Part shown: one piece after another, positions 32,923-35,082 of the stretch
Layout: every line of letters starts with the position of its first letter
Position numbering within the stretch: the first letter of the stretch is position 1
Origin: Octopus sinensis
Lineage: Eukaryota
DNA: 64,000 nucleotides
Direction of reading: 5' to 3'
Assembly: GCF_006345805.1 (NCBI RefSeq)
Contig: NC_043021.1
Location: 13,330,001-13,394,000 of the forward strand
The notes under the pieces: generated by a model
The model's input: only the letters and a program-made list of their open reading frames with translations
Told to the model about the DNA's origin: nothing
Database searches by the model: none
Translations under genes and position numbers: made by a program

Positions 32923-32962
<40 letters not shown>

Positions 32963-33032
32963 TATACATATACATATATATATACATATACATATATATA
33001 TATACATATTATATATATATATATATTATATA

Positions 33033-33116
<84 letters not shown>

Positions 33117-33130
33117 TATATATATATACA
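32590..33130. repeat. Long imperfect (TA)n/(TACA)n tract
   Basis: Directly visible; similar tracts at 23786-24280, 50200-50382, 51300-51525 and 56350-56665. Confidence 0.95.
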
Positions 33131-33357
33131 CTTTATTTTAAGCAGCAGAAAATTCAACAAAATCTGTTACTCTGAGTTTCTCGTTGCCGTTCATCAGACA
33201 GTTTTTGCTAGCAAAAACTGTCTGATGAACGGCAACGAGAAACTCAGAGTAACAGATTTTGTTGAATTTTCTGCTGCTTAAAATAAAGCATATTACTCTA
33301 CCACTGGTATTTGAGTACTCTTTTTTCCACCTTGTTTCACATTTATGTGTTTACTCC

Positions 33358-33359
<2 letters not shown>
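33131..33359 (+). mobile_element. Hammerhead fold-back family 1: perfect 158-bp palindrome plus 71-bp tail
   Basis: 33131-33209 is the reverse complement of 33210-33288 (centre gct|agc); tail catattactc...tttactccgg; flanked by (TA)n. Confidence 0.85.
33214..33260 (+). ncRNA. Minimal type-I hammerhead ribozyme motif (family 1)
   Basis: aaaa-ctgt-CTGATGA-a-cg-gcaa-cg-a-GAAA-ctc-a-gag-TA-acag-a-tttt; mirror copy on the minus strand at 33159-33205. Confidence 0.6.
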
Positions 33360-33397
<38 letters not shown>

Positions 33398-33855
33398 TAA
33401 TATATATATACATATATATACACATATATATATACATACATATATATATAACGATCCTCCATGTTTATTTTCATTCTGTTTCCTTGTTCGTCTCCACTGT
33501 CCTGTTTTTGTTCCTAACTTTGACCCTCCATAAGTCCCAAATTGTATTTTGTATTGTACATATGGGAGCAATTGTCTTATAAGACTCATATTGTTGTTGA
33601 ATGCTCAAAATGAGGAGTAGATAGACAGCCGACAACTGATGAAGGGTCGTTCTTTATGTTACTTGTCCTGTTTTCCATTTGTTTCTCTCATCGTTTGCAT
33701 ATTGAACTCATCTGCTTTCATATTTCATGTTGTTTACTGTGTTCTGAGTCAACCAAAGCCTTGGAAAAGGTCTGTAGTATGTATATATATATATATATAT
33801 ATACATATATATACATATACATATATATACATATACATATATATATATACATATT

Positions 33856-33972
<117 letters not shown>

Positions 33973-33979
33973 ATATATA

Positions 33980-34208
33980 CTTTATTTTAAGCAGCAGAAA
34001 ATTCAACAAAATCTGTTACTCTGAGTTTCTCGTTGCCGTTCATCAGACAGTTTTTGCTAGCAAAAACTGTCTGATGAACGGCAACGAGAAACTCAGAGTA
34101 ACAGATTTTGTTGAATTTTCTGCTGCTTAAAATAAAGCATATTACTCTACCACTGGTATTTGAGTACTCTTTTTTCCACCTTGTTTCACATTTATGTGTT
34201 TACTCCGG
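33980..34208 (+). mobile_element. Hammerhead fold-back family 1, second copy (849 bp downstream)
   Basis: Palindrome 33980-34137 plus tail, apparently identical to 33131-33359; hammerhead motif at 34063-34109. Confidence 0.85.
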
Positions 34209-34627
34209 TATATATATATATATATAATATATATATATACATACATATATATATATATATATACATATATATACATATATATATACATACATATATATAT
34301 AACGATCCTCCATGTTTATTTTCATTCTGTTTCCTTGTTCGTCTCCACTGTCCTGTTTTTGTTCCTAACTTTGACCCTCCATAGTCCCAAATTGTATTTT
34401 GTATTGTACATATGGGAGCAATTGTCTTATAAGACTCATATTGTTGTTGAATGCTCAAAATGAGGAGTAGATAGACAGCCGACAACTGATGAAGGGTCGT
34501 TCTTTATGTTACTTGTCCTGTTTTCCATTTGTTTCTCTCATCGTTTGCATATTGAACTCATCTGCTTTCATATTTCATGTTGTTTACTGTGTTCTGAGTC
34601 AACCAAAGCCTTGGAAAAGGTCTGTAG

Positions 34628-34662
<35 letters not shown>

Positions 34663-34821
34663 AATATTAGGGAATAAATCCAAACTTACAGGGAAAAATC
34701 AGATTTAGGATTGAATCCAATTTTATAGTAAAATATTATATTATATTATAAGTAAATTATTATTTTAGATTATATAGATTATTTATATCATAAAAATATT
34801 GATTATATTTTAGATTTGAAA

Positions 34822-34885
34822 CCACCTGAAGAATGTCTACTACTCAAAGATGTGATGAAAAGAAGACATGAAACGATCGTAGTGG
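34822..34885 (+). ncRNA. Type-I hammerhead ribozyme with canonical core and palindromic stem III
   Basis: ccac-CTGAAGA-atgtct-(25 nt)-agacat-GAAA-cgatcg-TA-gtgg: all three stems pair, GUA cleavage triplet; lies in an AT-rich segment (about 34660-34995) bounded by (TA)n. Confidence 0.8.
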
Positions 34886-35082
34886 ATATTAATAATTGTT
34901 AAATTTCTAAATAATATAAATTAATTTATGTATTGGATTAAGTCTTTCTTTGTTTGATTTGCATAATAGTGGTTTTGTCTCTAATTTAATATAATATATA
35001 TATATATATATGCATATACGTATATAGAGTGAGAGGTAGGTAGATAGATAGATAATACAGACAGACAGACAGACAGACAGAC

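What the first reader, a model, noticed from the sequence alone, without database searches (positions are those of the whole stretch)
34822..34885. Best ribozyme candidate: fully canonical hammerhead with palindromic CGATCG stem III
Seen: intact CUGAAGA/GAAA/UA core, 4-bp stem I, 6-bp stem II with a 25-nt loop, and a self-complementary stem III (ACGATCGT), in an extremely AT-rich, TA-bounded element of about 340 bp. Established: a palindromic stem III is typical of dimer-acting minimal hammerheads. Inference: probably active, cutting after 34881.
Basis: partly seen in the sequence, partly recalled or inferred. Interest (0 to 1): 0.75.

Follow-up and report, generated by a model that had tools for sequence, protein, structure and literature searches.

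The report
Hammerhead in spliced Penelope retrotransposon leader
The hammerhead ribozyme motif is real but belongs to a short dead stub of a known kind of jumping gene (a Penelope-like element with thousands of copies), it is predicted to cut only weakly, and over a thousand sister copies lack the element's intron, which likely means the element copies its own spliced, uncut message back into DNA.

Summary
Observation confirmed: a type I hammerhead at 34822-34885 with an 8-nt palindromic stem III and predicted cut after 34881. It is not a stand-alone 340-bp element. It lies in the terminal repeat (pLTR) of a Hydra-type Penelope-like retrotransposon with at least 5,251 ends in this probably octopus genome. 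The window copy is a promoterless stub in (TA)n: an inverted 89-nt tail plus about 250 nt of pLTR. Hammerheads in Hydra elements are published, one from octopus. All 11 catalytic bases are invariant over 20 subfamily representatives while loop 2 is free, so the motif is selected. But this variant is predicted to misfold over its cut site and has no partner in cis, so 'probably active' is unproven. More interesting: a GT-AG intron ends 8 nt before the ribozyme; in the main subfamily 1,051 genomic junctions are spliced and 688 retain the intron; spliced copies stop at an initiator motif with the ribozyme intact; 0 of 50 head-to-head pairs mix the two forms. That points to sense, spliced, uncut RNA as template. 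A pile-up of 5' ends just after the cut site hints at partial cleavage. This scan noted spliced Penelope copies before in other genomes.

The parts
34632..34659 (.). (TA)n target, left side
   Evidence: sequence; 97 of 100 sampled element ends were classed as ending in TA runs at one of two sites
34660..34748 (-). inverted 'tail': the 89 nt that follow the pLTR end and form part of the 5' UTR in front of the ORF
   Evidence: 100% match over 89 nt, in inverted orientation, to L002 and L004; runs on into the 5' UTR and ATG in L031
34746..34813 (+). 3' end of a GT-AG intron (1,379-1,400 nt in 4 long copies of this subfamily group, 1,227 nt in a fifth); acceptor AG at 34812-34813
   Evidence: donor and acceptor in L003, L004, L009, L022, L090; 18 exact spliced junctions against 23 intron-retaining ones for this subfamily
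34814..34821 (+). start of exon 2, 8 nt between acceptor and ribozyme
   Evidence: spliced genomic copies join exon 1 to this base
34822..34885 (+). type I hammerhead ribozyme motif with palindromic stem III; predicted cut after 34881
34832..34890 (+). predicted competing hairpin, 34832-34843 paired with 34879-34890, covering the cut site
   Evidence: MFE -15 kcal/mol against -4.1 for the active monomer; P(stem I)=P(stem II)=0.00; prediction only
34886..34996 (+). rest of the pLTR, down to the inner of two preferred 3' ends (inferred reverse-transcription start)
   Evidence: 57 of 100 arms end here and 40 at the tail end
34997..35012 (.). (TA)n target, right side
   Evidence: sequence

Best explanation
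The motif is the pLTR hammerhead of a Hydra-type Penelope-like retrotransposon, carried here on a short truncated insertion in a (TA)n tract, and it most likely works as a weak, dimer- or protein-dependent cutter that leaves most transcripts whole. In full elements the order is initiator, exon 1 (23-29 nt), intron, 8-10 nt, hammerhead, about 115 nt to the pLTR end, about 90 nt of tail, about 60 nt, ATG, RT plus C-terminal GIY-YIG ORF (shown). The ribozyme therefore sits in the 5' UTR of the spliced mRNA, where a cut about 95 nt from the start would remove the cap (inferred). The element's protein likely nicks both strands of (TA)n and starts reverse transcription inside the RNA at the pLTR end and the tail end, making two cDNA arms that join head to head (inferred from copy ends and from PMC11167929). 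Templates include spliced sense RNA, copied to its start, and intron-retaining RNA; the window copy came from the latter. A minority of templates may have been cut, leaving arms that begin just after the cut site (about 40% likely).
For: Element: L031 has hammerhead-tail-ATG-RT frame-hammerhead; L214 holds a whole unit, hammerhead 1590, ATG region 1872, ORF end 4354, next hammerhead 9336; L047 has an 859-aa frame with the Hydra motifs. Abundance: 143, 1,851 and 5,251 exact hits for three probes, reversed controls 0. Selection: 11/11 catalytic, 8/8 stem I, 0/27 loop 2, 1/8 and 7/40 flank columns invariant in 20 representatives; position 7 varies as the core allows; one stem III pair is G-C in 10, A-U in 8, G-U in 2. 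Splicing: GT-AG ends in 5 of 5 long copies examined; junctions follow the donor each subfamily has, also when the donor shifts by 4 nt; 1,051 spliced against 688 intron-retaining junctions in the main subfamily; none of 45 spliced arms runs more than 1 nt upstream of the initiator A; 50 head-to-head pairs are 29 spliced-spliced, 21 retained-retained, 0 mixed. Weak cutting: 56 of 73 arms at risk pass the cut site intact; PMC4209133 found no monomer and low dimer activity for PLE minimal hammerheads; PMC11167929 found protein-assisted cleavage and uncut RNA as the main substrate. Some cutting: arm starts peak at +1..+16 (17 of 73) and drop at 0..-16 (3 of 56), Fisher p=0.006; 0 of 20 arms stop in the first 16 nt of the equally AT-rich intron; 4 of 100 listed copies begin at the cut site itself, within 0 to -2.
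Against: No cleavage, transcript end or splicing was observed in RNA; all is read from genomic copies. The start-site bins were chosen after seeing the data, 9 of 100 arms were dropped (8 tandem duplicates, 1 unalignable), several breakpoints in AT-rich sequence were set by eye, and paired arms are not independent. Most of the pile-up lies at +5..+16, not at 0, whereas about a fifth of spliced arms reach the initiator exactly; RT pausing at stem I or microhomology bias could give the same step. The stem III change is two CpG-type transitions and perhaps one or two evolutionary events; stem I never varies, so it gives no covariation. The active fold is predicted poorly populated for several abundant variants even as dimers. 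No tree with published Hydra proteins was built, and no wholly intact ORF was shown among the 109 candidates scored. The unit (7.7 kb in L214) is far longer than the <3 kb typical of published Hydra consensus sequences.
Confidence: 0.8

Rival explanations
1. The hammerhead is the main processing step: it cuts tandem transcripts into unit-length RNAs that are ligated into circles and serve as templates, so intact ribozymes in the copies are re-ligated ones (model proposed in PMC4209133).
For: Strict conservation of the core; tandem units with a ribozyme at each end; intron-retaining arms are long, up to many kb, as read-through of a circle would allow.
Against: Spliced arms carry exon 1 joined to an intact ribozyme and stop at the initiator (0 of 45 extend more than 1 nt beyond). 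A circle closed at the cut site would put the element's 3' region, running upstream of the initiator, in that place. So the spliced class, the majority in the main subfamily, came from uncut linear 5' ends.
Confidence: 0.2
2. The motif no longer cuts in vivo, or is kept for another job (protein binding, splicing, dimer formation between template RNAs); the pile-up of arm starts reflects RT pausing or microhomology.
For: Predicted misfolding of the window variant and of the most abundant subfamily; ribozyme mutants did not affect insertion in vitro and no reads ended at the site for the anole element (PMC11167929); most arms pass the site.
Against: Exactly the catalytic bases are invariant while position 7, the first stem II pair and loop 2 drift, the pattern expected of selection for catalysis; a few copies start at the cut site.
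Confidence: 0.15
3. The 340-bp TA-bounded piece is an independent non-coding unit (retrozyme or ribozyme-bearing SINE).
For: Short, non-coding, many near-identical relatives (up to 99.6%); retrozymes derive from PLE pLTRs (bioRxiv 10.64898/2026.07.22.740005).
Against: Only 3 of the 40 candidates scored match over the whole 341 nt; the left 89 nt are inverted; no head-to-tail array; breakpoints differ from copy to copy; the sequence continues into intron and ORF in long copies.
Confidence: 0.04

Closest known systems
Hydra clade of C-terminal-endonuclease Penelope-like elements, including Hydra-1_Obim (Craig et al. 2021, PMC8557442; seen: abstract, passages, section 11, supplement part 2 of 59 and search hits)
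   Same: RT plus C-terminal GIY-YIG; DKT motif; CxCX5C linker; no CCHH; CxxC and CxH around the conserved E and N; (TA)n targets; type I hammerhead with short stem I and self-complementary stem III (File S2).
   Different: A different family from Hydra-1_Obim by eye (other N-terminus, other ribozyme stems); unit of about 7.7 kb with a 1.2-2.4 kb intron in the pLTR, which the Hydra section does not describe; long Asn-rich stretch in the ORF; loop 2 up to 25 nt.
Minimal and palindromic PLE hammerheads (Cervera and de la Pena 2014, PMC4209133; seen: parts 1-2 of 4)
   Same: Type I, in the pLTR, stem I of 4 bp, palindromic stem III, extra base at the start of stem II, mostly single dispersed copies, some close opposite-strand pairs; in D. 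virilis the intron also ends at helix I.
   Different: No G10.1-C11.1 pair; 8-nt palindrome; intron about 20 times longer than the 75-bp fly intron; predicted inhibitory hairpin in this subfamily.
Penelope of Drosophila virilis and PAc of Anolis (PMC2377424, passages; PMC11167929, parts 1-2 of 4; PMC3846280, passages and Discussion)
   Same: Promoter and 5' UTR intron in the pLTR; two internal RT start sites bounding a tail; head-to-head inverted insertions.
   Different: Tail of about 90 nt rather than 30-40; these papers stress intron retention and leave open an antisense or unspliced template, while here over a thousand genomic copies are precisely spliced.
Metazoan non-LTR retrozymes (bioRxiv 10.64898/2026.07.22.740005, part 1 of 5; PMC7229834, listing only)
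   Same: Non-coding, type I hammerhead, PLE-related.
   Different: No tandem monomers; variable, truncation-type ends; tied to an ORF-bearing parent.

Membership tests
Type I hammerhead ribozyme | Catalytic core C3-A9, G12-A14, A15.1-U16.1, H17 | tested here: met
   Sequence; 11 of 11 invariant in 20 representatives
Type I hammerhead ribozyme | Stems I and II flank the core, ends meet in stem I | tested here: met
   Stem I paired in 100% and stem II in 87% of cells; slid controls 16-62%; little covariation
Type I hammerhead ribozyme | Site-specific self-cleavage | not testable with these tools
   Needs in vitro assay; genomic arm starts give only a hint
Dimer-type PLE hammerhead | Short self-complementary stem III | tested here: met
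   8-nt palindrome, duplex -10.0 kcal/mol; the isolated 64-mer cofolds as a double hammerhead; kept in 19 of 20 representatives
Dimer-type PLE hammerhead | Active fold accessible in natural context | tested here: inconclusive
   Predicted P of active helices 0.00-0.10 for the window variant with flanks, high for some other subfamilies; secondary-structure model lacks tertiary and protein effects
Penelope-like element | pLTR-ORF-pLTR partial tandem with RT and GIY-YIG | tested here: met
   L031, L213, L214; Atlas look-alikes carry GIY-YIG on 26-38% of members in some clusters; Pfam itself gave no significant hit
Penelope-like element | Inverted 5'-truncated copy and optional tail | tested here: met
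   Window copy and paralogues
Hydra clade | C-terminal EN without CCHH; CxxC before E and CxH after N | tested here: met
   Read by eye from L047, L038, L048 translations against section 11 of PMC8557442
Hydra clade | CxCX5C linker and DKT motif | tested here: met
   Both present in L047; one broken copy has DKS
Hydra clade | N-terminal RWK motif | tested here: inconclusive
   KWK at that place, a conservative variant
Hydra clade | (TA)n insertion preference and canonical hammerhead | tested here: met
Hydra clade | Placement in the Hydra branch of an RT tree; absence of the insertion-in-fingers domain | not tested
   Published proteins were compared by eye only. Length (<3 kb 'generally') is a tendency, not a definition, and is exceeded here (7.7 kb)
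Non-LTR retrozyme | Head-to-tail tandem monomers each with a hammerhead | tested here: not met
   Single sense copy; paralogues are single or head to head

The most novel reading that the evidence does not exclude
The thousands of stubs of this family are a fossil record of the Penelope replication cycle: both arms of each head-to-head insertion are copied from one sense RNA (or one cDNA), which may be spliced and capped, intron-retaining, or already cut by the hammerhead. This would rule out an antisense template as the cause of inverted ends in this family, show that intron retention comes from which RNA is used and not from blocked splicing, and give a genomic measure of in vivo hammerhead cleavage (roughly a tenth to a fifth of templates), with an inhibitory hairpin guarding the capped mRNA in some subfamilies.
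Probability: 0.35. Interest if true: 0.68.

Novelty: new member of a known kind. Interest (0 to 1): 0.42.

Why it matters
The ribozyme alone is ordinary: hammerheads are described in all Hydra-clade elements checked, including one from octopus. What matters is the family around it. Penelope-like elements are known for keeping introns through retrotransposition, and PMC3846280 leaves open whether the template is antisense or unspliced sense RNA; PMC8557442 calls both intron retention and hammerhead function unclear. Here a young, very abundant family has left over a thousand precisely spliced copies that end at the transcription start with the ribozyme uncut, and its head-to-head pairs never mix spliced and unspliced arms. 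That makes template strand, one-RNA versus two-RNA priming and the in vivo cutting rate testable from one genome. I found no such report in five literature searches, but the library lacks most subscription papers, including Arkhipova 2003 and Lunse 2017, and this scan's own unchecked notes describe spliced copies in other genomes.

Tried and rejected
Rfam at gathering score (whole window) and at E<=10 (34600-35050): no hammerhead family hit. Pfam on two long ORFs: nothing significant. First guess from memory that the RT was Naiad-type: rejected, the endonuclease is C-terminal and motifs fit Hydra. Sequencing runs: no RNA holder listed, only guessed-RNA contig sets; laying four of them on L031:5100-5800 showed contigs over the ribozyme and tail but no joints or ends, and contigs cannot show starts, strand or level, so nothing is drawn from it; the splice junction could not be checked in reads. 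One search used a mis-indexed structure string and is discarded; one search is the valid count. A sharp peak of copies starting exactly at the cut site: only weakly seen (4 of 100 at 0 to -2 against 4 arms at -3 to -16); in the larger samples the excess lies a few bases downstream. The sample (101 arms: 46 start at +2..+34) overlaps that and was not pooled. An untemplated base opposite the cap at spliced 5' ends: confounded by microhomology, not claimed. The tandem duplication left of the element does not give a clean empty site. Lunse et al. 2017 is not held; only its title was seen, in a reference list. The bioRxiv supplement on retrozymes was not seen and may list related octopus families.

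Full report
Observation. A strict descriptor matches once in the window and never in 300 Markov windows. Rfam has no hit at gathering score or at E<=10. It is not fully canonical: the first stem II pair is A-U and is unpaired in 12 of 20 subfamily representatives.

What the element is. A search of the genome (2.7 Gb; probably an octopus, inferred from its repeats and from earlier scan notes) with 34655-34995 gave 63 matches from 40 candidates scored of 1,540. Only 3 cover the whole stretch. In most, the part matching 34660-34748 follows the rest in inverted orientation. At C4:78.93 Mb the order is hammerhead, that 89-nt segment, about 60 nt, ATG, a broken RT frame, second hammerhead. Searching with the RT gave 113 matches from 109 candidates scored. 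L047 has an 859-aa frame with DKT, CxCX5C, a C-terminal GIY-YIG without CCHH and CxxC before the conserved E; L038 and L048 also keep CxH. These are the marks of the Hydra clade in section 11 of PMC8557442, whose File S2 lists hammerheads for Hydra families including Hydra-1_oBim, a different family. L214 holds a whole unit of 7,746 bp between ribozymes. Exact probes give 143 hits (ribozyme 3' half), 1,851 (46-67 nt downstream) and 5,251 (pLTR end), with 0 in reversed controls. The window copy is an inverted tail (34660-34748) joined through 3 shared bases to a forward arm (34746-c.34996) inside (TA)n; no ORF of the family lies in the window. Its left arm is just the stretch between the two preferred 3' ends, which take 57 and 40 of 100 sampled arms. 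This fits the two internal RT start sites shown for the anole element (PMC11167929).

Is the ribozyme selected? Copies found through the RT or through downstream probes, not through the ribozyme, gave 69 distinct ribozyme sequences in 153 locus matches, overlapping loci included. I chose 20 subfamily representatives by eye. Invariant columns: 11 of 11 catalytic, 8 of 8 stem I, 6 of 8 inner stem II, 3 of 6 inner stem III, 0 of 27 loop 2, 1 of 8 upstream, 7 of 40 next downstream and 36 of 60 further downstream. Position 7 is A, U or C. One stem III pair is G-C in 10, A-U in 8 and G-U in 2, which keeps the palindrome; both changes are CpG-type transitions and may be one or two events, so the covariation is modest.

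Would this copy cut? The isolated 64-mer cofolds as a double hammerhead at -30.4 kcal/mol. With its natural 3' flank, 34832-34843 pairs with 34879-34890; the active helices then have probability 0.00 as monomer and 0.01-0.10 as dimer. The most abundant subfamily is predicted to misfold too, while some others fold correctly. These are secondary-structure predictions. Published PLE minimal hammerheads showed no monomer and low dimer activity (PMC4209133), and the anole one cut only with protein and was not needed for insertion. The stub has no promoter and no same-strand partner. So 'probably active' is not supported for this copy.

The intron and the spliced copies. Upstream of the ribozyme the copies fall in two forms. 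One has a pyrimidine-rich tract ending in AG at the place of 34812-34813. The other has a 23-29 nt leader joined at the same base. In five long copies that leader is followed by GT and lies 1,227-1,400 nt upstream of the AG; in the main subfamily the intron is 1.8-2.4 kb. The junction follows the donor each subfamily has, also where the first GT is lost and one 4 nt further on is used. Exact junction counts are 18 spliced and 23 retained for the window's subfamily, 1,051 and 688 for the main one. None of 45 spliced arms runs more than 1 nt upstream of an A in a YYANWYY initiator-like motif (consensus recalled), and about 10 reach it; a TATA-like box lies about 25 nt upstream in some subfamilies. 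Among 196 listed junctions in the region covered by both lists (4 spliced hits beyond it dropped), 50 head-to-head pairs within 20 kb are 29 spliced-spliced, 21 retained-retained and 0 mixed, where random pairing would give about half mixed; two of the spliced pairs look like tandem duplicates. Spliced pairs lie mostly within 22 nt of each other at the probe ends (25 of 29), retained pairs 0.2-14 kb apart. In the window's subfamily the lists hold 2 pairs of each kind and none mixed. Inference: sense, spliced, uncut RNA is a template, and both arms come from one RNA, from one cDNA by fold-back, or from one class of RNA. PMC3846280 proposed an antisense template to explain head-to-head repeats and intron retention and left the question open; spliced head-to-head pairs argue against it for this family.

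Signs of cutting in vivo. Of the first 100 hits of the pLTR-end probe, 91 were kept (8 tandem duplicates and 1 unalignable dropped; several breakpoints set by eye). Arm starts per base at risk were 0.33% at +35..+61, 0.67% at +17..+34, 1.46% at +1..+16, 0.32% at 0..-16 and 0.21% at -17..-43; 17 of 73 against 3 of 56 gives p=0.006, with bins chosen after seeing the data. All 20 intron-retaining arms pass at least 45 nt into the equally AT-rich intron, so AT content alone does not explain the step. Four of 100 listed copies of the window's subfamily start at the cut site, within 0 to -2. Against: the excess is mostly at +5..+16, not at 0, and RT pausing at stem I or microhomology bias could produce it. 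I put partial cleavage at about 40%. Either way 56 of 73 arms were copied through an intact site.

Comparison and verdict. The ribozyme is a new member of a known kind: a dimer-type hammerhead in a Hydra-type PLE (clade by motifs, no tree). The intron just before helix I parallels D. virilis Penelope (PMC4209133; PMC2377424). Spliced genomic copies were not found described in five searches, with the limits of the library; two earlier unchecked scan notes report them in other genomes and one reports Hydra stubs in this genome; I reached the reading before seeing them. Interest 0.42: low for the ribozyme, moderate for the family-wide record of templates.

Noticed in passing
window 33197(-)/33222(+), 34046(-)/34071(+), 35600(+), 48036(-), 48503(+), 51705(+): A second, unrelated hammerhead family with a 2-bp stem II closed by a GCAA loop and a near-palindromic stem III, in fold-back stubs inside (TA)n; it resembles the Hydra-2_aMil motif in File S2 of PMC8557442.
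   Followed up: no
window 52056 (-): A third, degenerate hammerhead-like motif with palindromic stem III and a mismatch in stem I.
   Followed up: no
window 32930-33818 and 33777-34667: Tandem duplication of about 850 bp at 97% identity directly left of the element; real or an assembly effect is unknown.
   Followed up: partly
L145:1749-4628 (+) and L146 (-): A sister Hydra-type family, about 53% identical in the RT, with two near-identical 960-aa open frames; no hammerhead of the simple descriptor within the 7 kb fetched outside the ORF.
   Followed up: partly
L047:442-3018 (-): Long Asn-rich stretch inside the ORF, as reported for Adineta Penelope families in PMC3846280.
   Followed up: no
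L039, L041, L051 upstream of the ORF: A subfamily whose pLTR end shows no hammerhead within 230 nt upstream; truncation, divergence or true loss not resolved.
   Followed up: no
L213:1892, 3096, 8731: The initiator-exon 1-donor block occurs twice within one pLTR region, with different donor variants.
   Followed up: no
L031:3646-4254 (+): GIY-YIG fragment of another PLE clade, with CCHH-like residues by eye, just upstream of the Hydra-type copy.
   Followed up: no
L004:2192(-), L015:1032, L023:612, L024:1032(-), L032:2345, L033:381, L034:1533: Further unrelated type I hammerhead-like motifs in flanks of fetched loci, showing how common they are in this genome.
   Followed up: no
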